Source of the DNA: Lama guanicoe
Lineage: Eukaryota
Assembly: GCA_013239625.1 (NCBI GenBank)
Contig: MU053652.1
Span: 7,369,902-7,433,901 of the forward strand
Reading direction: 5' to 3'
Length of the DNA stretch: 64,000 nucleotides
The notes beneath the pieces are model-generated. The model did no database searches. It had not been told where the DNA came from and saw nothing but the letters and a program-made list of their open reading frames with translations. Positions 3,716 through 57,199 of the stretch are shown piece by piece. How positions within the stretch are numbered: position 1 is the first letter of the stretch; every line of letters begins with the position of its first letter. A program made the position numbers and the translations under genes.

Positions 3716-6700
3716 ATATTATGATATTTTTCTCTTTGTGATATAAAGACATCAATTTGATTGTAACTCAACACTGATGTTCTGTTTCATATATACTGTG
3801 TTTTTCTGGAAAGCAAGATAATTTATAGGCCAATTACCGGTATGCCTTCTTGTTATACAAGCAATTATTTTTATTATAAAAATGAAGGTACTAAATGATG
3901 ACATGCCATTTTATTATGTTGAGCAATTAGCTAGATCTGTCCACAATTAACTATTGTAATCTTAGCTATCAGTGTGGCAGGTACAAGACCAACATATAAA
4001 ATTTAATGGAGACCACTGAAAAATTTGGCCCCACATTACTTATATGTTTTTTATGCTGAATTCCAAAATTCTTAGTTTAAATGAAGAGCCCTATGAATAA
4101 AAGTCTTAGACACTTTCATATCGCAGACAGACAGAAAGCCACTACTTTTCATAATTGAAATAGCAGAGTTAGCAGGAGTGACTATAGCTCCCAGTTCATT
4201 CAATCCACTCACTGAGTAAAGCTTCCTTTAAAAACATCAGGAAAAAGAAAAAAAAAACCTTCAATAATTTAAATAACCCTTTCCTAGGATTTATCTGTTG
4301 CTGAATAGGTCTTGAATCTCTTGTTAGGAGAGAAAGGCATTAAGGATGCTCGAGCCTGCCTGACTTTAATGTCTTCTATTTAGTGCTGCATATGTGAGCA
4401 ATAAGGAAGTCATCCTGTCATCTCCCAGGACAGCTATAGTCACAATGAATGATCAGGGAAAAACTGATTTCTCCCACTGAGATCATTCATAATTGCCTGT
4501 GACTTCTTACTTCTAAGGTGGCTAGAAAGTCACTGCTCACGTTGTTAGACTCTTAGGAGAGCAGTTAGAAAAGCAATAGACTTAGCTGGTAGTGTCCACA
4601 CTTATTGAGTCATTGGACAGTGTCTCTGTCCCTTTATTAATTGTAATCTCATCAGACTCCTTATCTGAGCCTTGTTTATTAATGTAAGCATATGCAGTTT
4701 TCTATTCTACTCAAAGAGGTAAGTTATCCATCTTCTCTTTAAGGAAAAGTTTAGACAATTGATTGTCTTAAATTCTCCTATTCATTTACGTCAAACCTGT
4801 TAAGGAAGCTCTAATTTTAATCCCTGTTTGAGTTACTTAATACCATTCCTTATCTGATCATATAGGTTGGAGTTTGTACAGGGTAACAGGATAGGGGCTG
4901 ATTGACCATTACTCAAAAGCAATTTAGGGTGGGGGAAGTTAATTAGCAGTTATTCCATGTCCATTTGTATTAGACACTATAATACTGTATAAGCACTGGG
5001 CATCTTTTGTCTGATTCATTTCATTTTCTACCCACTTATTACTTTAACAACAGTAAAGTCTTTTTTTATATATATATATAAAGAGTAGGTGGAGTTTCCA
5101 TACCTCCTACTTCTAGTAAAACTTTTCCTGGTCTTATGAAGGAGGCCAGTCACTGCAGACTTATAAACATGTTGCCTGATTTCTTAGTCCTACAGGCACT
5201 GGCTTAACTGCAAGTTAAGTGGCAGTTCCTGAAGTCTTGATACCTAACCATTACGTCTTGGACTGGAATGAACAACTCTTTCTATGCAGATAGAAAAAGT
5301 TTTCTAAAAAAGGGCTACAGCCACGACTGGTTGTGGGAACACAACTTCAGCTATCACAATATTTCATTAAATATTTGTATCCAAATGATACCAGACTCCA
5401 ACAAGATTAGTTGAAATATCAGGATTTTCCTAAAAATATTCCTGACATCCTATTGGCAGATTCCTTACTGGATGCACACTGAGGTATCAGAGTGGATAAT
5501 TAATCCTTCTCACCTTTTGGCTATTGGTAGGTTGTTCAAAAGGCTTTTGCTAGCACAAAAATTCATAAAGGGGCATTAAGGAAGAAATTGCTAAGCACTA
5601 GAGAAAAATGGGTAAAAATACCCCATATTTTGAGTAGGCTTTTAAAACCTTGGTTTGAAAACTGCAGGGAAGTTTATTGCAACATCTCAGTATGATTATT
5701 CAAAAACAAAATAAGAGTCTTAATCCTATGCCTCTGTAGGGAGCCTCTTCTAATGATGACCCTCTAGTTAAAAAGGAGATGAAAGCAAAATTTCCCTCCG
5801 ATGGCATCCAGATAGCCCAAACTGTAAGTTGTACACCAGAATATGGCTAAAGCAAACATTTTTTTCCCCTAGAATTTGAATTTAAAAAATTTCAATTTTG
5901 TAGTTAAATATCTCCTCTTATTTTCCTGAGTTCATTCATTTTTGGGGGGATAGAAATAGTCCTTTTTAATTCAATTCCAGTCTGTCTATAAGACGTTGAT
6001 TGCAAAGATAATGACAACAATAACTAAATTCATCAATATAATTTAGCAGTTGGCTATAAATTATGATTAGAAAATTTAACCTTTATTCTCAAAACAACCT
6101 ACAAAGGTTAAAAAATTATAATCTTTATAACATGTTTCTTATGTCTCCAATTTACATATGTTTATATAATTTACATGTACGTATATAATATATAATGGTT
6201 TCCTTGTTTGGCCCATTTTGAGAGAATTCTCTCATGATTTATATGAGAGAAGAAATAAAGGTTTTCTTCCAGGCTCCATGGGACCCTTCCTGTAGCTGCT
6301 TCACTTGCATTGTAGCTAAGGCAGGACTTGTGAAGCAGGAAAGAAAGGGCACCACTGATGCCTGGACTGAGGCATGACTGATAAGGTGGATGGAACCGAC
6401 CCAGCAGCAGATGATGACTGTAGAAATACAGCCCTGAGAGTCAGGCCTCCATATACGTTCAGTTCTTGCTTCCGGTCGTAAGCGTGGAGCAAAATAATGG
6501 CTGATACTCAAGAGTCAGCTAGCACACCACCATTCTTAAGACTGGTCTATAGGCTGCTGGTTCCAGTTCCAGACCTGCAAAAAGAAAGCAGGTCTCCAGC
6601 GCCCCTGACTACCAGGCTGGAGTTGGTATACGAGTTCACTGAAGAGGCTGGGATTCAAACTAGGAACTGTGGCTGAAGATAAGGCTGGCAGGCAGCAGGT

Positions 6701-8445
6701 AAAACTGGACTGATGAATTATAATTATGTTAATTTTAGTCATGATTGGACCTGAGAGAGTGACAATTACTCTGTTTTGTTTGGTAATTATACTCTGTGAT
6801 GCACGTGTTTTTAGGAAAAGGGTAGAAAGGGCGAATCTCATGGCCATCTCCTTCTTCAGACAGGGTTGCCATGGGTCACGGGATAATTCTGAGTCTTCCA
6901 GTGAGAGCCTTAGCCAACATCTGTTTCCTGCGAAACAGATGCTGGAAAAAAGACAGGTACAAGGAAAGAGGCAGGAGATAGGACACACAACTTTCAAAAG
7001 CTCGTGATGGGGCTCTGTCCCGGGACTGGGAGCGCTTACTTTCTCAGGGCTTAAGATACAACCATCTTGAGAGTCCCTTAACTATTTCCTTAATGTTACA
7101 GCTGTTGGCTACATTTTAGACATGCTCTGAACTGGAAGTAAGCTGTGGTTCAAACAAACGAAAAAGATATGTTAAGTAAGATTTAAGACTAGATTCTTTT
7201 CTCTCGTAGAATCTGTGTTGCAGTGTACACAGCAGGATGGAGAGAGCAGAAAAAGTACCCTATGTGGGGGGCATGGATGCTGTTTTCTGCAAGCATGGCT
7301 CTTGTAATTTGGCCAAGGGCAAAGAGAACGATAGGAATATGGACACATTCCAACTCCAATGAGTAAGTGCTAATTTAAAAAAAAAATCACATTTCATAGT
7401 AGTATGTCCTCAGCTCTTTTCAAGTTGGATGAACATGGCTCTGAGGGAGTGACATGCCAGACCACAAAACAAAAGGCAAATATGTGCCTGAAATTAAAAC
7501 GTAGTTTTACGTTTTTAACCTGGCTTTAAGGCATAATTTGTTACTCAAGTAAACAATTAATATATTTATGCGACACTTAAGTTGAGGATAATATAGGAAT
7601 TTACTAGTTGTTCCTTCCCTTTCCAGATGGCTATTAATTGTGTAACTCTGAAATGTTTTCTATAGTAATAGCTGGGACAGTGGAACAGTTAATTGAATGA
7701 TGAAGGTTATCTCATTGAAATTCAGTACCCTGTCTTGCAGAGAGAAAAGGCGACTTGTTTGGCTCCAGTGGAAAGTGCCACAAGATATACTACTTGGACA
7801 CAGAAACAAAGAAAAACACTCAAAGGAATTCAGTGCAGTGGATGGTACTTAGGATCGTAGGGGGTCAGCTTACACTGAATGCCCCCGGGGCAAAGACTTT
7901 CATGTTTGTGTACAGGATAAACTCATCTTGCGGGCTCGACAACAAAAAGGAAGTGATAACATTAATTAATTATAAACACATGATATCAAATACACCAATG
8001 TGAAATAGTGTCAGATTTTTTTTTTCTTTGAAGCTAACTCTTTGAAGAAATGGATGTTCAAATACTCAACAAATCCGTTCCAATAGCTATTTTGGAATTC
8101 AAAGAAAAATATACAATGTAACTATTTTCATCAGGATTTGAGTGCATGTTATTTCTTGATTTCTTGAGAATGGCAATGATAGGAATTGGCTTCCTTTTTA
8201 AGATTTGCAGGTGTGGTTTTTCTGATTGTTCTCTAGAGAGATTTCTGTCGTAATAAGTTGTGGCTTGTTCATCATTTATTCCAAGTGACTTTCAATAGAG
8301 CAGTATTTCCAGATACTAGATATCAGATATAGTTTCGTCTCAAGCCTAGAGATAACAATAACAATAATAGTATTATGTGCCGTAATACTGAATATATAAT
8401 TATATATAACAATATCATAGATATCAATCAGTATATAATACAAAA

Positions 8446-11229: not shown

Positions 11230-11930
11230 TATAAATTTTCTTCTAAACCATCTGAGAGTAGGTTATATACATTGTGACCTTTAATCCCTTAATACTTAGT
11301 GTATACTAAGAACAAATATATTCTTTTACATAATCTTCAGTACAGTTATCAAATTCAAGAAATTTAACAGTGATACAACACTTTACTATTTATACTCCAA
11401 TTTTGTCAGTTGTCTCGATAAACTTTTAAATATTTTTTCCCCTTCAGTCAAGAATCACAGATTGCATTTAGTTGTCACGTTTCTTTAGTCTCCTTTGATC
11501 TGGAACAGTTCTTCAGCTTTTCTTTGTCCTTCATGACACTGACATTTTTTATGAATATAGGCCAGTTTTTTCTTTCTCCCTTTTTCCTTTTCCCTTTTTA
11601 TTTTTTTAGAGACTCATCCTTATTTGGGTTTGTCTGATGTTTGCTCATGATTAGATGATGTGTGTCTGGCATGAATCTACACGCCACTACTGATAATAGT
11701 GTCCTCAGGATATCATATGTGGAGGTACCCATCAATGGTGATATTAATTTTGATCACCTGACCAAGGTGTTACTTTGTTTCTCCACTGGATAGCAGCTGT
11801 TGTCCCCTTAGCACTCACAAATAATCTATGGCGAGACACTTTAAGCCATATTTTGCTCCTCATTAAACTTCTCCCTCATGAGTTATCATACATTGATGAT
11901 TCTTGCCTGCACCGTTTTCAGACTGCCGTT
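11230..11930 (-). mobile_element. L1MC-type 3' end fragment
   Basis: 'tacagttatcaaattcaagaaatttaac', 'gcatttagttgtcacgtttctttagtctcc', 'ttttgatcacctgaccaagg' match L1MC4/5-like 3' UTR in reverse. Confidence 0.75.
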
Positions 11931-15599: not shown

Positions 15600-16283
15600 T
15601 GGAAATTCCTTAAAAGACTAAAAATAGACTCATCATATGATCCAGCAATCCCACTCCTGGGCATATATCCAGAGGGAATCTTGATTCAAAAAGGTACATA
15701 CTCTCCAAAGTTCGTAGTAGCACTATTTACAATAGCCGAGACATGGAAACAATCTAAATGTCCATCGACAGATGACTGGATAAAGAAGTTGTGGAATATT
15801 TATACAATGGAATACTACTCAGCCATAAAATGTAAGAAAATAATGCCATGTGCAGCAACATAGATGGACCTGGAGATTGTCATTCAAAGTGAAGTAAGCC
15901 AGAAAATGAAAGAAAAAAACACTATATGATATCACTTATATGTGGAATCTGGAAAAAAGACACAAACTAACTTATTTACAAAACAGAAACAGACTCACAG
16001 ACATAGAAAACAAACTTATGGTTACCATGGAGGGAAGAGGGGGTGGAAAGGGATAAATTGGGATCTATATTTATAGATACTAATTAATATATAAAATAGA
16101 TAAACAACAAGTTCATATTGTTTAGCACAGGGAACTATATTCAATATCATTTAGTAACCTATGGTGAAAAAGAATATGAAAACACATATATGTATGTTCA
16201 TGCATGACTGAAGCATTATGCTGTACACCAGAAACTGATACAACATTGTAGACTGACTATACTTCAATAAAAAAAAATACACA
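15600..16283 (+). mobile_element. Young 5'-truncated L1 (ORF2 C-terminus, 3' UTR, polyA) with TSD
   Basis: ORF 15681-15863 'ALFTIAETWKQSKCPSTDDWIKKLWNIYTMEYYSAIK' is the L1 ORF2p C-terminus; AATAAA plus A-tail at ~16266-16277; direct repeat TAAAAATTTA at 15590-15599 and 16284-16293. Confidence 0.95.
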
Positions 16284-29129: not shown

Positions 29130-29236
29130 AAAAATAGGAAATGCCTCCTGAATTTGTACAACATCATCGAGCAGGTGTCATGCTAATCTGCTCTGTATTG
29201 TTCCAATTTCAGTCTATGTGCTGCTGAAGTGAGCAC
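29130..29236 (-). pseudogene. RNU6: U6 snRNA pseudogene, full length, 5' part of a U6/L1 chimera
   Basis: Minus strand GTGCTCACTTCAGCAGCACATAGACTGAAATTGGAACAATACAGAGCAGATTAGCATG...CAAATTC...TATTTTT aligns ungapped to U6 over 107 nt with about 22 mismatches by hand; the ACAGAGA box reads ACAGAGC. Confidence 0.95.
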
Positions 29237-40072: not shown

Positions 40073-40108
40073 ATTATTATTATTATTATTATATTATTAT
40101 TTTATTAT
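40073..40108 (+). repeat. (TAT)n microsatellite
   Basis: Directly visible. Confidence 0.85.
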
Positions 40109-40324
40109 TCCTATAATACCTGTTGAAATCCACGCAATCCATGTAGGAAAAGATTTCTTTGATCATTCCTTCTTCGAGAGATGGCAAAGTGTATGTGAAG
40201 GGATGAGATGTATTCCTGGAGAATAAAAAAAAAATTAGAGAAATTTGGTTCTTAACTATACAGGACATCAAAGATCCACAGACCATGAAAGTAAATTTAA
40301 GAACATCGATATAAAGTTAAATAG

Positions 40325-41680
40325 TTAAATTACTAACCTCCATTTCATTAGTTTTTTTTTTTCTTTCCCCCCCTGAGATTTTAACTTCTTTTGTTCGCAA
40401 CATATGCCTTTGTTTCTTCATTTTGCTTGGCTCTGTGTGGGTTTCTACGCATTAGAGAAAAGAGCCACCTCTCCCAGTCTTGAAGGACGGGGCTCGTGCA
40501 GGAGGTGAGCCTCATGGTTCAGCCCTGCGCTGGCTCTTCGTTGTGTCTCAAATCCTTGTGATTCTCCAAGTGGCCTATTGCATTTTTAGTGGCTCGCCCT
40601 AGTTGAGGGTTTTCTTAGAACTGCCAGTGTCCCAAAGGGAAAGATCTCAGGCAGCGCGGAGATTCAGGCAGATTGGAAGCCAGACCCTCAGGCAGCGGCT
40701 TTGACACTATACAGAGAGATGCTGTCCCGCGGGCCCCCAAGCGTAAGCCCGCGGGGGCACCACAGCAGGGGATCCAGCGGCGTCCCCTGGGCAGCGGCTG
40801 CGAAAACCTGGGCACCAGATCGAGGTACATCTCCCCTCCAGGAGCCCCCGGTGCGTGCTCCGCAGCACCGCAGGAGGGGAGCGTGAAGACGGAGCCCACC
40901 GGCTGGGCTGAGGCTGAGGCTGAGGCTGAGGTGCAGGCAGAGCCGCCAGCAAGGAGACGCAGAGGGAGAAAGATGGCGCCCGCCGAAAAGCCCGCCAAGA
41001 CGGCGCCTGCCGGCTGGAGCCAGGCAGAGGGCGAGCAGCGATGGCACTCCTGGGGGCAGGAAAAAAGAAAAAGTCCAGCGTTTGAAAACAAGCAAACAAA
41101 CAAAAGGCGACGCCTGCGTGTAGAGCGAGGCAGAGGGAGCGTGTGAAGATGGTGCCGCCCCCCCAGACGCGCGCCAAGTTAGACGCCGGCCCCTCAGGCG
41201 GAGGCTGGCGTTTCAGCACGTGAGCTTCGTTCTCGGAAGGTCTGGGGCCTCGCCACCCGCTGCCCCGGCCCAGCCCCGGAGCAGGTGAGTCCGGCATCGG
41301 AGCCCTTTAAGGGCGTTTCTCAGACCGCTTTAACCTTGTAGGTCTCCTGAACCCCAGCCCTTAGGCTTTCAAAGCTAGAGGTTTGGGGGGCTGGTCTCTG
41401 AGGGACAGGTCTTAAAAGCTGGGGTCCCCAATGTGGGGGTCAGACCCCACACTCCTCAGGGAGAAGCTCTGGGCTTTGGGCTCCGGGGTGGGATTTCTGG
41501 GGAACTGGTGTCCCAGCCTCCCTACCTGCTTCCCTGTGGGACTGCCCTCATTCGTCGGATGCTTAGCAGTGTTAAGGTTTATTTCAGAGGAAGTTATTTC
41601 ATATTTAGCTGCAGATGCTGTGTGTCTGTGGAAGGAGGTGAGCCCAGGATCCTCCTGTGCTGACGTCTTGACCCAGAACT
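40325..41680 (-). mobile_element. Orphan L1 5' end: complete 5' UTR plus decayed start of ORF1
   Basis: Minus strand begins 'GTTCTGGGTCAAGACGTCAGCACAGGAGGATCCTGGGCTCACCTCCTTCC', like a laurasiatherian L1 5' terminus. ATG at 40421 gives MKKQRHMLRTKEVK, then after a frameshift NEMEVSNL, resembling the ORF1p N-terminus. Homology stops at ~40325. Confidence 0.8.
40650..41335. promoter_or_regulatory. CpG island with YY1-like motifs and a consensus plus-strand splice donor
   Basis: About 54 CpG in 40681-41340 by hand count; AAGATGGCG at 40970; E-box CACGTG at ~41217; CAG|GTGAGT at 41284/41285; (GCTGAG)4 at 40907-40930. Confidence 0.75.
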
Positions 41681-43519
41681 AGTTGATAGAAAGAAAATCT
41701 GACAAGCCTGATCATTTTAAAAGGTTTAATGGAATCTTAGGGTCCCATAAAATGCAGCACAGGCCATAAATGAATTCTTCATTGAGATGAATAAGGAATG
41801 GTGAAGTTAATATTAGAATATGGCTCATTATTATATGTAAGATGTTTTTTATTCAAGGACTGTTAATGGCAAAAACACAGTTAGAACTTAGATCTTGAAG
41901 AAAGGTAATTCTTTAGGCTTAAAAGTAAACAGGAAAATAAAACATTCGTGGGAATTTGAATTTGAAGGTTGAAATTAATTTATCACTTCTCGTTTTACTA
42001 TTTAGTGTGGAGCCTGTGTTCTAGGGGATGTTAAGACCTTCCTCATGAAAGTCAGTAAACTATTCATCTGGCCTGGGGCACCCGGGTGGGGGCCCTGACA
42101 GCAGAGGCAAATGGGAGTCACTTGGGTGTTTAGTAATGTGGTTAATGTGGTTCACTGCGATCATTCCTGCAGTTAGAAGATGAAAGCTGATTAGTAAGTG
42201 GAACTAATGTGGGAAGAATTTATTAAAAGTTTGTGCATGACTTAAGTGTTAAATAGAACGTTTAAGTTCTACAATTAATGTTTTCACGAAAAATATGTGA
42301 GATTATTTTTTTTTAGAAAAGAGTCGAGACTGTCTTGTCCCTGGTCTTCCCTAGTCTAATTTCTCCTCCATATCAAGACAGAGTGATTTATACATACTCT
42401 TTCACTTCCTTACTTCCCATTTCCTATCCAACCCACCACAATCTGGCCTTGTGCCCATTACTTTACAGATACCCGGAAACTGCTCTCATAGTCATTGTGA
42501 TCTTCATTGGACTTCTCTATTGCATTTGAGTTTGGGATTATTTTCTTGTTGAAATTCTGTGCTTCCTACGTGTCCTGATATCACCGTCTCCTAGTTCTCT
42601 AAGACCTGTTCTAGTATAAATACGTGCTGCATTGTTACAATGGAAGTTTGAGCAACAAATAATTCTGGCTCAATTTCTCTTTTTCCCCTCTTATTTGTTA
42701 GTTTTAGAGGTTGGGCCAAAACACCTCAGGGTCACAAACAAGAAAGCATTTCCTAACCAACAGTGAATATCCAAATGTTTTGAGGACCTTATTTATTATT
42801 TTTATTCATTTTACACATTGATGTTAATACATAATGTTTCATTTGATAAAAGATTGCTACCAACCTTGAAGCGGTTACTGTTGACATCCTGTCTTTACTT
42901 GAGTTCTAACTCCTGTCTTTGTTGCTGCATTTTGAGTTTCTGCATATGTGGGTGTTGATACAACCAAGCTGGAGAAGTTTTGTCCTTTTGTGTAGATGTA
43001 GCTGACCATGCCCAATCCACCGGTGTCTCCTGCTAGTGGTGGTGGTTCCATCCTGTTGCCTTTCCTACCAATGCTCTGCTTGAAGAGTAGTTTTTCCCAC
43101 TCAGAGGGGAATATTTCTCTTGAAAATGTGACACCTGAATTCAGTCAGCACTAAAAGATTGCTTTCTACTTGACGGTAGCTCATTTCACTCCCACATGGT
43201 CACCTTCTCTTTGATGATTATAATGGCGTAGGTGAGACCTGCACATAGTGGGTGTTTAGTTAACCCATCTACTCTTTTCAAGTACCCTAGCGGTTATTCT
43301 TAGTGGAGGATAAATAAAAGGGAGATGATTCTGTATCACTATTTAAGTTTCATCCAAAGTGGGACATTTGTCCATTGATTTATCCTTGACTTTAGGGGAA
43401 TATCGTGCTATTCTAGGAGTTAGAACAGTCTTCTCTGCAAATCAGAATCTTGGGGACAGAGCTTGAATGCAGTCAAATGCTTCTTCCCTGACGGCTCCTG
43501 AAAAATAATCTATATATGA

Positions 43520-45009: not shown

Positions 45010-45750
45010 AATAATTTCAAACTTACAAGAATGTTGTAAAGGTAATACAAGGAACACTCAGATATCCTTTGTCCAGAGACCCAATTCAACTTCATTTGTT
45101 TCAATCATATCCATTATAGCAAAAGAATCCAGGATTATGTTCTCTACCTGGTCATGACTTTTTAGTCTCTTTTCTTGAAAAACTATTGTTCCTCATCCTT
45201 TCCCTTGTTTTCATGACCTTTATATAAATCTTAAGATTATATAGATCAGTTGTTCTCTTTGTTGTTTCTCAGTTTGGGTTTGTCTAATGTTTGCTCATGA
45301 TTAGGCGCAGATTGCATATTTTTGGCTGGAATGTCACAGGAGTGATGCTGTGTTCTGTCCATTGCATCTTTACCAGGCAACACACAATGCTGATTGTCAT
45401 TCCTGGTGGTTGTAGTTTTGATCACTTGATTAAGGTGGTTTATCTGCCAGGTTTTTCCGCTGTGAACGTACTTCTTTTCCACTATGTAATTATGAAGATT
45501 TTGGCCAGGGAGAAGATATTTTGAGACACACAGAAGTCCTTTGTCTCATCCTACTTTCACTCACTGGTTTTAGCATTCATTGGTATTTTATGCATGAATT
45601 AATTATTACTGTGATGGGGCCAAATAGCAGTTTTCTGATTTCATCATTATTTCTACATAATTAGTTGGCTTTATCTTCCTGTTTATTTATTCATTTATTG
45701 ATTGATGTCAGTATGGGCTTACAGATTTCTGTTTTTCTTAATGTGCTAGG
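45010..45750 (-). mobile_element. L1MC-type 3' fragment
   Basis: 'tttgggtttgtctaatgtttgctcatgattagg', 'tttgatcacttgattaaggtggt'. Confidence 0.75.
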
Positions 45751-46650: not shown

Positions 46651-47145
46651 TATAAATTAAAAGAACAATTTAAAACTTGAAACGTGTGAAATGTGAAAAA
46701 TAAGCTTTGGCTAGTTGAAACCGTTAAGATTCTGGGGTTCTCTGTTAGCATGGCATAATCTTGCTTGTCCTACTTGATATAATGTATATTTATAAAAAGT
46801 ACTTTAATAACACTGAGATATATGTTTCTGTATGTTTCAAATTTTCTACCACAGTTACTTAGATAAGTGAAGAAAAAGTCAATAAAAGCTTTAAATACAA
46901 AATCTTGTATTTCAGGGGATTGTTTTATTATTTCAGATATTGTCTTCAGGGTAGAGCAAGGAGGATAAAAATGATAATAAATTTAAAAAAAAAGTTTTGT
47001 GTTTGAAAATTCAGTATTTTACAAAGAATCTTGCTGTATGATGGCAGTACATTCAATAAAACATTAACACATATGAAATTTATTAAGAGATTAAGTAAAA
47101 TATGTAGGGTAAAGTACTTGTCTTCCATAATAAACAATGACAAGA

Positions 47146-47576
47146 CGCAGACATAGAAAACAAACTTATGTCCCAAAGGGGAAAGGAGGGGAGGGATAAA
47201 TTAAGAGTTTAGGATTAGCAGATACAAACTACTATATGTTAAATAGATAAACAACAGGGTCCTACTATATAGCACAGGGAACTAACTATATTCAGTACTT
47301 GTAATGATCTATAATAGTGATTCAGTTTTATAGCTATATATAACTGAGTTTAGGATTAATATATACATACTATTATATATAAAATAGATAACCAGCAACA
47401 ATCTACTGTATAACACAAGGAACTATACTCAATATCTTGTAATAACCTATAACGGATAAGAGTCTGAAAAAGAATATGTATGTATTATATATATATAAAA
47501 AAACTGAATCATGATGCTATAAACCGGAAACTAACATGACATTGTAATTCAGCTATACTTCAATTAAAAAAAAAAG
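47146..47576 (+). mobile_element. Young L1 3' UTR stub with polyA and 14-bp TSD
   Basis: 'cagacatagaaaacaaacttatg...gggataaattaagagttt...ctatacttcaattaaaaaaa'; TSD AAACAATGACAAGA (47132-47145) and AAACGATTACAAGA (47577-47590). Confidence 0.92.
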
Positions 47577-54193: not shown

Positions 54194-55910
54194 CCATCAT
54201 AACATGACTACTAGCAGAAATCACCCTGCTACTTTATCTTGTAAAATCGAATAAAAATATGATTCTACAGCATGTGGACATTCTCATGTACTTTCCAAGA
54301 TCCCTACAAATTTTTGTAGAACTTATATTTTTATGTTATCTCTAGTGCTGAGTTATATTTCTACTAAAATAACCCTCAGTTCCACTCTTTCTGTTTTTAT
54401 TTTGTACCATGCCAGACAAAATGGGAAATGCAGTTTTTGGAATTTGGGGTGGGATTGCAGGGGAGAAGCAGTAGGTAAAATTAAGCAAGAATGTCAGTCT
54501 CACGAAGCTTTTGGATATAGGAGACTTTACTGACGATTTAGTAAAATGTAAGACAAGTTGGCATAATGGTGGCAATTATGTAGCCAATACCAAATATTTT
54601 AAAATTGAACATCCCTAAGTTTTAAAAATTCTTTCATTCACCCCATACCCAGGGCTTTTTTTCCATTGACAGTATTGTCCTACAAAGGCTGCTTGGGTTT
54701 TGGAAATCTACTAGGGCTTTTCCTTTCTTCTCATTCCTTTCTCCCTTTGCAATTAAAAACAATTAAAAAAAACAAAAAGAAAAGAGAGAAAGAAAAAGAA
54801 AGCGTTCCTACCTCTCTTTTTATTTTGCTTTTCCTAATACACCTGTTCCAAGGCTAGGTGTTTTATACCGAAATTATTAGGAAGTACAGGTAAAGGGATT
54901 CTCAGATATTACAGTCAAGCTTTAAACATGTAAGTGATAGATCTTTGAGGTTCTAAAAGTCTCCAGTTCTGAGTTACTTTGCTGCTGCTCTAACAACCTT
55001 CGTAATTTCAACTGTTGATCAAGGTCAGTATAATAATTGTAGTAGATCTTCTGCTGGAAATATTTAAGACAAAGGATAATTTCACTCTTCTTCCTGTGTG
55101 GAGTGCTAGACACTATATTTAGCTATATGTATAACTGACTTACTGTACTTTCTGTGTTCTTGAGTATTGGAACAAAAATTGCATCTTTATAAAGCACTTC
55201 ATGTTACAAAAATACAGTGTAACTTAAAAATGACATTAAATACTTGATGTACAGAAGGCAATATTTTGAAGGAAGTTTTATCCTTGTAAACATTTCTCTG
55301 TAATGAAATATTTCTATTGTTTGCATACTATAATTTCCATGTCAAGAAGTGTACTTAATGAAAATTGGGTAGAAAAAATTCAGAGTGATTACTATTCAAA
55401 ACGTTTGGATAATACAGAGTACTTAAGACTAAATTCATCATTGTTAAATTGCATTCTAACTACAAGTAAGAAAATGCATATTTTGTGAATGGCAGTGGGT
55501 TAGTTGGGAGAAGGGTATGTGATTATAACCATACATGTTGCCTCAGCAGGTCATATAATCTCTTTCAATAACCCACTATTAATACTCATTTCTATTTTTA
55601 AGAAGCTGTCTTTATTTCTGTTGTTTGATACTCCCAGGGAATTCTGTCATGTTATTGAACCTTTATTAGAATTTTAGTATTTGGTACTTGGTACTTGGTA
55701 TTTGGCACTATCGTTATTGGTAACATAATCATATGATGTTAAAGTTTCAGCATGAACAGTACTCCCAGAACTTCAAAAGAATCAGAATCAGCCTTCTCAG
55801 GAGCCGTCCACAGGCCTAGACCTGAGTGAAACAATCCTGGACAATAGTGAGAAGTTGGAAGTTTGTCTTTGCCATCCAGCTTTCTCTTTTCCCCAGGACC
55901 CCCCCCCCCC

Positions 55911-56692
55911 NNNNNNNNNNNNNNNNNNNNNNNNNNNNNNNNNNNNNNNNNNNNNNNNNNNNNNNNNNNNNNNNNNNNNNNNNNNNNNNNNNNNNNNNNN
56001 NNNNNNNNNNNNNNNNNNNNNNNNNNNNNNNNNNNNNNNNNNNNNNNNNNNNNNNNNNNNNNNNNNNNNNNNNNNNNNNNNNNNNNNNNNNNNNNNNNNN
56101 NNNNNNNNNNNNNNNNNNNNNNNNNNNNNNNNNNNNNNNNNNNNNNNNNNNNNNNNNNNNNNNNNNNNNNNNNNNNNNNNNNNNNNNNNNNNNNNNNNNN
56201 NNNNNNNNNNNNNNNNNNNNNNNNNNNNNNNNNNNNNNNNNNNNNNNNNNNNNNNNNNNNNNNNNNNNNNNNNNNNNNNNNNNNNNNNNNNNNNNNNNNN
56301 NNNNNNNNNNNNNNNNNNNNNNNNNNNNNNNNNNNNNNNNNNNNNNNNNNNNNNNNNNNNNNNNNNNNNNNNNNNNNNNNNNNNNNNNNNNNNNNNNNNN
56401 NNNNNNNNNNNNNNNNNNNNNNNNNNNNNNNNNNNNNNNNNNNNNNNNNNNNNNNNNNNNNNNNNNNNNNNNNNNNNNNNNNNNNNNNNNNNNNNNNNNN
56501 NNNNNNNNNNNNNNNNNNNNNNNNNNNNNNNNNNNNNNNNNNNNNNNNNNNNNNNNNNNNNNNNNNNNNNNNNNNNNNNNNNNNNNNNNNNNNNNNNNNN
56601 NNNNNNNNNNNNNNNNNNNNNNNNNNNNNNNNNNNNNNNNNNNNNNNNNNNNNNNNNNNNNNNNNNNNNNNNNNNNNNNNNNNNNNNNNNNN
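55911..56692. other. Assembly gap (782 N)
   Basis: Run of N preceded by a C homopolymer. Confidence 1.
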
Positions 56693-57199
56693 ATATGTGT
56701 ATTTATACAGTTATGAATATTTTCATAGGGTCATCCTAGTGTGTTGCCTTAACTACTGGACCAGTTGTTTAAATAAATGTAAGTCAATTTAAATGCTTTA
56801 AACATGCTTTTGATGTGTTTGTTTATTTCTGCATTTTGTCTGTGTATTAGACACCTGTGAGGACCTAGAAAGTCATGTGGATGCTCCTGAGAAAAATGCT
56901 CGTTTGCCTAAAATACTGTGTTTAGATATCCCCAAAAACCTAACTTTATACTGCAGGTTGAAAATCTCTGAACGAGAGGACTGTGGTAAGGGAGTGATCT
57001 AAATAATATCACAAGCATTTGTTAACAATTTTAAGAGAAATCATGGATTAATTTCACATAAAACAAAAGTTTTAAAAATTAGAATGAATTGTTGAGAATT
57101 ATTCACTACCAATAAAAGCATACATTGCAAGAGGCTATGTAAGTGAATATATGACCTTTGCCAGTTTATTTAATAAATTTTTTCTTACGATCTAATATT

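What the first reader, a model, noticed from the sequence alone, without database searches (positions are those of the whole stretch)
40325..41680. Orphan L1 5' UTR that appears to have become a CpG-island antisense promoter or first exon
Seen: the only CpG island in 64 kb lies wholly inside a minus-strand L1 fragment consisting of the 5' UTR and about 32 frameshifted ORF1 codons. This is the reverse of the usual 3'-stub relic. CpG density is uneven within the element: about 54 CpG in 40681-41340 against about 4 in 41341-41680 (hand counts). The drop comes just after a perfect plus-strand donor CAG|GTGAGT (41284/41285). Known: methylated old L1s lose CpGs, and human L1 5' UTRs carry an antisense promoter that splices into neighbouring exons. 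Inference: this segment stayed unmethylated in the germline and acts as a promoter for a plus-strand spliced transcript, possibly bidirectional. One candidate acceptor has a long pyrimidine tract ending at AG 42706-42707.
Basis: partly seen in the sequence, partly recalled or inferred. Interest (0 to 1): 0.7.

Follow-up and report, generated by a model that had tools for sequence, protein, structure and literature searches.

The report
L1 relic keeps antisense promoter island
The stranded front end of a dead LINE-1 jumping gene in a camel-family genome carries the window's only CpG island, and a predicted wild-camel gene covers the matching stretch on the opposite strand, so it likely works as a promoter for a non-coding RNA: a known way of recycling jumping genes, not yet shown here by RNA reads.

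Summary
One CpG island (40583-41417, GC 63%, o/e 0.69) lies inside a minus-strand L1 5' UTR plus about 32 ORF1 codons; the counts of 54 and 4 CpG are exact, and the drop beyond about 41330 exceeds chance. Corrections: the ORF1 stub is open, not frameshifted; the first AG after the pyrimidine tract is 42700-01; lone 5' UTRs are common in old L1 families. New: a RefSeq model of wild camel (XP_032340263.1) runs collinearly on the plus strand over 40515-41182. It shares the island, but its frame is not conserved (3 frameshifts, 2 stops), which points to a non-coding RNA. A distant L1 relative (L002) keeps 1 CpG in 1013 bases. Best reading: a likely germline-hypomethylated, L1-antisense promoter or first exon (0.6). 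The CpG-decay test against camel was inconclusive, GC-biased gene conversion remains open, and no reads, junctions or methylation data were obtained. A degenerate flanking duplication with a plus-strand endonuclease-type site hints (about 0.3) that the piece was inserted already inverted and orphaned by twin priming. New member of a known kind.

The parts
40325..41674 (-). L1 fragment: 5' UTR (about 1250 bases) and ORF1 start; the rest of the element is absent
   Evidence: Alignment to L002; by-eye likeness to pig L1A/L1B consensus; the ORF1 continuation in L002 has no match elsewhere in the window
40320..40421 (-). ORF1 stub, open for 34 codons; L1 likeness ends at about 40325
   Evidence: 40 of 52 columns identical to L002 over 40421-40370
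40583..41417 (.). CpG island; dense core about 40725-41330
   Evidence: 57 CpG, GC 0.63, o/e 0.69; change-point fit
41341..41674 (-). CpG-poor 5' end of the L1 (sense-promoter end); the YY1-type motif seen at the start of pig L1 consensus sequences is degenerate here (41662-41670)
   Evidence: O/e 0.15; by-eye comparison; YY1 label from PMC4908685 passages and recall
40515..41182 (+). Stretch covered by the coding frame of wild-camel RefSeq model XP_032340263.1 (LOC116665088); frame not conserved in the window
   Evidence: 205 of 221 aligned codons give the same residue; 3 frameshifts, 2 stops, start ATG not matched
40886..41154 (+). Four copies of a YY1-like motif, all on plus (40886, 40970, 40997, 41146); 40970 is the perfect AAGATGGCG
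   Evidence: 4 on plus, 0 on minus, 0.03 expected; pattern chosen after seeing the sequence; binding not tested
40901..40931 (+). (GGCTGA)5.3 microsatellite; two units longer in the camel model
41282..41290 (+). Candidate splice donor CAG|GTGAGT (41284/41285); weaker AG|GTGAG sites at 40503 and 41636
   Evidence: use not shown
42666..42707 (+). Candidate acceptor region: pyrimidine tract with AG at 42700-01 and 42706-07
   Evidence: one of 11 similar tracts downstream; use not shown
40299..40322 (+). Left copy of a possible degenerate target-site duplication, preceded by TT|AAGA (L1 endonuclease-type site at 40297)
41675..41698 (+). Right copy of the possible target-site duplication, starting at the L1 5' end; 19 of 25 columns match the left copy

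Best explanation
This is the orphaned 5' end of an old L1 whose middle part is a CpG island shared with wild camel, and it likely stays unmethylated in the germ line and likely works as a promoter and first exon firing antisense to the L1 (plus strand) into a predicted non-coding RNA. Shown: the island, its place inside the L1 5' UTR, the decayed 5'-most third, the plus-strand camel gene model and the non-conserved frame. Inferred: the L1 sense-promoter end fell under methylation and decayed, while the antisense-promoter part, with plus-strand YY1-like motifs, an E-box and a GC-box, was kept open. RNA would start at or left of the island core (the camel model's frame begins near 40515), splice at 41284, and stop early in the leftward direction (first minus-strand AATAAA at 40106, no minus-strand donor-like site in the element). 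The acceptor is unknown.
For: One insertion has two CpG regimes: o/e 0.76 against 0.15, P=1.4e-4, 1 of 300 permutations. RefSeq model XP_032340263.1 lies on the plus strand over 40515-41182. At 53 positions where a CpG transition would change the residue, the camel protein keeps the window's residue at 46, shows the transition at 3 and another change at 4. A distant L1 relative, L002, has 1 CpG in 1013 bases, the usual fate. AGGTRAG occurs 3 times on plus and never on minus in the element (P=0.0025), and the consensus donor lies about 40 bases inside the island's edge. Known: human L1 5' UTRs carry an antisense promoter with a YY1 peak that gives spliced, mostly non-coding chimeras; young pig L1D 5' UTRs show weak antisense activity (PMC4908685, PMC6501411; passages).
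Against: No read, junction, start-site or methylation data were obtained. The camel record is a prediction whose support line I could not see, and its protein ends before the donor, so it says nothing on splicing. CpG transitions between window and camel run at about 6 times the non-CpG rate (4 of an assumed 104 against 5 of 778 position-branches); likelihoods are 0.10 at 3x, 0.15 at 5x, 0.10 at 10x and 0.05 at 15x, so protection is not demonstrated. The distal segment has no TpG/CpA excess over the island (o/e 1.10/1.08 against 1.18/1.04), so it may have been CpG-poorer from the start. There is no change in TA or GC skew across the island. In human, ancient L1s show only minor antisense activity from the 5' UTR. 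No same-subfamily copy was available.
Confidence: 0.6

Rival explanations
1. The island was largely built or held up by GC-biased gene conversion at a lasting recombination hotspot, and any promoter activity is incidental or absent. This can also act together with the best explanation.
For: In the well-aligned 3' end of the UTR, non-CpG differences from L002 are 14 with G/C in the window against 5 the other way (p=0.064), but 3 against 4 in ORF1; GC is 0.55 against 0.40 in that block and 0.31 against 0.32 in ORF1. Two of four YY1-like copies read ACG where the others read ATG. PMC11170920 names gBGC as a source of orphan islands (passages). My recollection of a related L1 consensus also suggests an A/T-to-G/C excess (recalled, no call, untested).
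Against: The comparison is unpolarised, and L002 has itself lost G/C. The distal block leans the same way (13 against 7, p=0.26). Transversions in the island are balanced (18 against 14, in a poor alignment). It does not explain the plus-strand gene model.
Confidence: 0.2
2. The island is unmethylated but works as an orphan-island enhancer or gives only short unspliced RNA; the donor is an inherited L1 motif that is not used.
For: No Pfam match at cut-off in 228 of 236 frames of 58 aa or more, so no coding gene is evident nearby. Orphan islands are enriched for enhancer marks (PMC11170920). The acceptor is unremarkable. A plus-strand AATAAA lies at 41936.
Against: The camel model has a defined strand; donor-like sites are strand-biased.
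Confidence: 0.12
3. This is an ordinary copy: the subfamily is young enough, or had CpGs only in the middle, so that all copies look like this.
For: Young LINE 5' UTRs meet CpG-island criteria (PMC12582260, passages). No TpG/CpA excess in the distal part. The ortholog test does not exclude methylated rates (P=0.28 at 10x).
Against: The 5' motif is degenerate, a microsatellite and A/G runs have grown inside, and the insertion predates the split from wild camel. Pig L1A consensus keeps a few CpGs in the segment matching the CpG-free 41341-41480 (by eye). L002 is fully decayed.
Confidence: 0.08

Closest known systems
L1 antisense-promoter (ASP) chimeric transcripts of human and mouse (Criscione et al. 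2016, PMC4908685; passages read)
   Same: Antisense orientation inside an L1 5' UTR, YY1-type motifs, a splice donor towards the L1 5' end, mostly non-coding output.
   Different: A different, non-primate 5' UTR type; the island lies 350-1020 bases from the L1 5' end, against an ASP within the first 600 in human; the element has no body; expression and splicing are not shown. The short plus-strand ORF at 40973 (57 aa) resembles ORF0 in position only, and its frame differs from camel after 28 codons.
Transposon-derived orphan CpG islands (PMC11170920 and PMC12582260; passages read)
   Same: An island far from any evident coding gene, carried in by a retrotransposon promoter; gBGC is a named alternative source.
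   Different: Those surveys mask repeats or find LINE DNA rare in human islands (0.9% of bases); here the whole island is L1, and only part of the 5' UTR was spared.
Twin-priming L1 insertions with a very short non-inverted part (Meyer et al. 2010, PMC2837659; Kojima 2010, PMC2912911; passages read)
   Same: An L1 piece cut at its 3' side, flanked by a possible duplication, with the endonuclease-type site in the orientation opposite to the L1.
   Different: Meyer's 39 loci keep a poly(T) stretch; none is seen here. The duplication is degenerate (19 of 25 columns) and long (23-24 bases against a peak of 14-16).
Pig L1A/L1B 5' UTRs (PMC6501411; passages and part of supplement 1 read) and old perissodactyl L1 families (PMC5872511; passages read, supplements unreadable)
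   Same: Homologous 5'-end and mid-UTR motifs by eye; in an old horse family 5' UTR counts far exceed full-length copies (323 against 11).
   Different: Not the same subfamily: several window motifs had no match in the pig file.

Membership tests
LINE-1 5' end | 5' UTR followed by the ORF1 start, homologous to mammalian L1 | tested here: met
   L002 alignment score 449 against 229 best shuffle; by-eye match to pig consensus. L002 is itself labelled L1 by eye against the pig ORF1 start; protein searches with the 44-residue stub found no true relative.
LINE-1 5' end | Assignment to a named subfamily | not testable with these tools
   No Dfam or Repbase library; horse consensus files unreadable.
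CpG island | At least 200 bases, GC above 50%, o/e at least 0.6 | tested here: met
   835 bases, GC 0.63, o/e 0.69
CpG island | Unmethylated in the germ line (slow CpG decay) | tested here: inconclusive
   Ortholog comparison through the camel protein, about 6 times the non-CpG rate, unpolarised
L1 antisense-promoter transcript | Transcript antisense to the L1 starting in the element | tested here: inconclusive
   Plus-strand RefSeq model in wild camel; its 5' end and support not visible; no reads laid
L1 antisense-promoter transcript | Splicing from an L1 donor to an outside exon | not tested
   Donor motif present; no junction data obtained
L1 antisense-promoter transcript | YY1 binding and active-promoter chromatin | not testable with these tools
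   Motifs only
Twin-priming insertion | Target-site duplication bounding the insert | tested here: inconclusive
   Null scores reached it in 5 of 620, 8 of 654, 14 of 728 and 9 of 760 trials; left boundary partly chosen after seeing the match
Twin-priming insertion | Endonuclease site in the orientation opposite to the L1 piece | tested here: met
   TT|AAGA on plus at 40297; nearest minus-strand site 45 bases from the 5' end
Twin-priming insertion | Non-inverted 3' part or poly(A) remnant at the inner junction | tested here: not met
   The right copy abuts the L1 5' end with no A run
gBGC tract | Polarised excess of A/T-to-G/C substitutions | tested here: inconclusive
   14 against 5 relative to L002 in one block, unpolarised
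Protein-coding gene (camel LOC116665088) | Frame and start codon conserved between orthologs | tested here: not met
   3 frameshifts, 2 stops, ATG not matched; Atlas model pLDDT 0.38; cluster of 1

The most novel reading that the evidence does not exclude
The element was born an orphan: one twin-priming event copied only the L1 5' UTR and 32 codons, inverted, between a target-site duplication, delivering a ready-made promoter cassette with no L1 body to attract silencing. Its antisense half was then kept unmethylated, perhaps sharpened by GC-biased gene conversion, and now drives a spliced camelid lncRNA while the sense-promoter end decayed.
Probability: 0.2. Interest if true: 0.62.

Novelty: new member of a known kind. 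Interest (0 to 1): 0.4.

Why it matters
If true, it is a clean case of a new CpG-island promoter arising from half of an L1 5' UTR outside primates and rodents, with an internal control in the same insertion (kept and decayed halves of equal age). It makes a standing question testable at one locus: whether transposon-borne islands persist by staying unmethylated or are rebuilt by GC-biased gene conversion. If the twin-priming origin holds, it adds a route by which L1 inserts a promoter without its genes. The general phenomenon is known, and no host gene or function is linked yet.

Tried and rejected
No whole genome is held, so sister copies could not be counted. The run search listed 10 RNA or guessed-RNA contig sets holding 0.07-0.20 of the words of 40300-42800, from 3 studies; these small shares were never laid on the sequence and are not evidence. 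No read-level result was obtained, so start, strand, splicing and level are open. Pattern scans for relatives: viral contigs 0 in 3 scans; metagenome contigs 0, then 4 loci of which 1 (L002) is L1-like and 3 match only at the pattern or at simple repeats; genome contigs 4 loci matching only at the pattern. Plasmids gave 8 short hits over the microsatellite, phages none. The ORF1 stub found nothing true: none, none, one repetitive protein rejected. A mixed-frame profile found only the camel protein again. Pfam: 2 sub-threshold hits in 229 frames sent (228 of 236 frames of 58 aa or more, plus the stub; 8 left out). Rfam: only a U6 copy. Strand skews show no step at the island. LOC116665088 is in 0 papers of the library's full texts (supplements not covered by that search). 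Window motifs had no match in the 4 readable supplements of PMC4072516, and the 11 full-text hits for 5 window motifs were unrelated by title (listing only). The horse consensus files could bear on subfamily and CpG ancestry but were unreadable. Rejected: a protein-coding role for the camel ORF; the acceptor at 42706-07 as first choice; 'frameshifted' ORF1; rarity of a lone 5' UTR as such.

Full report
Observation. One island is found in the window under each of two standard definitions, 40583-41417 (GC 0.63, o/e 0.69) and 40610-41487; a gap of 782 N cannot be judged. O/e is 0.76 in the island, 0.15 in the distal 340 bases and 0.21-0.22 in the rest of the window. The distal depletion has P=1.4e-4 at the fixed boundary, and 1 of 300 permutations with a free boundary reached it. 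The donor CAG|GTGAGT is at 41282-41290.

What the element is. No repeat library was available, so identity rests on two comparisons. A metagenome contig, L002, found by a pattern scan, aligns to 40904-40286 with score 449 against at most 229 in 100 shuffles, and more weakly to 41437-41219 (169 against 148); its middle is poorly alignable. By eye, the window's 5' end, the 41480-41270 segment and the ORF1 start resemble pig L1B and L1A consensus sequences (PMC6501411, supplement 1, searches and part 1 of 56). So this is a minus-strand L1 5' UTR ending at about 41674, with ORF1 starting at 40421 and breaking off at about 40325. The stub is an open frame of 34 codons, not frameshifted. The subfamily is unknown. 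A lone 5' UTR is not rare in itself: an old horse family has 323 5' UTRs against 11 full-length copies (PMC5872511, passages). No coding gene is evident in the window: 228 of 236 frames of 58 aa or more gave no Pfam match at cut-off; short exons would be missed.

New evidence from wild camel. A search with the longest plus-strand frame found one protein among 370 candidates, XP_032340263.1 (LOC116665088, Camelus ferus). It maps collinearly on the plus strand over 40515-41182: 205 of 221 aligned codons give the same residue, and it shares the GGCTGA microsatellite. I infer that it is the ortholog and that the window is from a camelid. The frame needs 3 frameshifts, crosses 2 stops in the window and lacks a matching ATG, and the Atlas model has pLDDT 0.38, so the protein is probably not real and the model more likely marks a non-coding RNA. 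That RefSeq models of this kind usually rest on RNA alignments is my recollection; the support line was not visible. The protein stops 102 bases before the donor and so does not test splicing.

Is the island protected from methylation? For: one insertion carries both a kept and a decayed part, and L002 has 1 CpG in 1013 bases, though it is a single distant copy of unknown species. At 53 positions where a CpG transition would change a residue, the camel protein agrees with the window at 46, shows the transition at 3 and another change at 4; one more CpG-type difference runs the other way; non-CpG transitions are 5 of 389. That is about 6 times the non-CpG rate, and the likelihoods at 3x, 5x, 10x and 15x are 0.10, 0.15, 0.10 and 0.05, with the camel-side count of sites assumed. 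With methylated CpG expected at roughly 10-15x (recalled), the test is inconclusive, and the changes are unpolarised. Against: the distal part shows no TpG/CpA excess over the island, so it may have started poorer in CpG.

GC-biased gene conversion. In the well-aligned 3' end of the UTR the window has G/C where L002 has A/T 14 times against 5 (p=0.064), against 3 to 4 in ORF1 and 13 to 7 in the distal block. Transversions in the island are balanced in a poor alignment. The signal cannot be polarised. PMC11170920 names both transposon promoters and gBGC as sources of orphan islands (passages), and PMC4417305 lists both germline hypomethylation and BGC as ways to keep them (passages). Unchecked earlier notes report gBGC at other islands of this genome; they are leads, not support.

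How it likely works. Donor-like AGGTRAG sites are 3 on plus and 0 on minus in the element (P=0.0025 in 2000 shuffles), and four YY1-like motifs all lie on plus (pattern chosen after inspection). The YY1-type motif at the L1's own 5' end is degenerate by eye against the pig consensus. The first AATAAA leftwards on minus is at 40106; on plus it is at 41936, behind two donor-like sites. By the known balance of U1 sites and poly(A) signals at promoters (recalled), the plus direction would be the productive one. I therefore infer a plus-strand first exon from near the left edge of the island to 41284, with the sense-promoter end silenced and decayed. The acceptor is open: the first AG after the tract is 42700-01, and 11 tracts of that quality lie downstream. 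Skews show no long transcription unit starting here. No read evidence was obtained.

Origin of the orphan. The 23 bases left of the ORF1 break (40300-40322) match the 24 bases that begin exactly at the L1 5' end (41675-41698) in 19 of 25 columns. Null trials reached that score in 5 of 620, 8 of 654, 14 of 728 and 9 of 760 cases. The left copy is preceded by TT|AAGA on plus, and no such site lies within 40 bases of the 5' end on minus. That geometry, priming on plus with the L1 piece on minus, is what twin priming with an almost empty non-inverted part would leave (PMC2837659, PMC2912911; passages). Against it: no poly(A) remnant, a long and degenerate duplication, a partly post hoc left boundary, and the rarity of such events. 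I put it at about 0.3 against later deletion.

Comparison and verdict. It works like a human L1 antisense-promoter chimera (PMC4908685, passages), but membership is not shown, because transcription from the element and splicing were not tested. It meets the sequence definition of a CpG island and is wholly L1-derived. LOC116665088 appears in none of the library's full texts. Best explanation 0.6; gBGC as main cause 0.2; enhancer or unspliced RNA 0.12; ordinary subfamily profile 0.08. New member of a known kind; interest 0.4.

Noticed in passing
window 29130-29236, minus: U6 snRNA copy, full model length, 77.5 bits; diverged, likely a retrocopy.
   Followed up: no
window 40973-41146, plus: ATG in strong context inside the perfect YY1-like motif opens 57 codons; the camel model shares the first 28 and then changes frame.
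   Followed up: partly
window 47140-47575, plus: L1-type 3' end in which an 80-base block recurs 141 bases later (79% alike); related to the 3' end at 16058-16277.
   Followed up: no
window 55897-56693: A run of C leads into the 782-base N gap; GC-rich sequence could be hidden there.
   Followed up: no
window 6400-7100: Non-repetitive-looking stretch with many TAAT motifs and overlapping open frames of 96 and 181 aa without Pfam match; might be a conserved non-coding element.
   Followed up: no
window 11623-11654 and 45273-45304: 32-base direct repeat, 97% identical, 33.6 kb apart, probably within copies of an old repeat.
   Followed up: no
L002:1-1013: Mammalian L1 5' UTR and ORF1 start in a metagenome collection, with 1 CpG, 72 TpG and 93 CpA.
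   Followed up: yes
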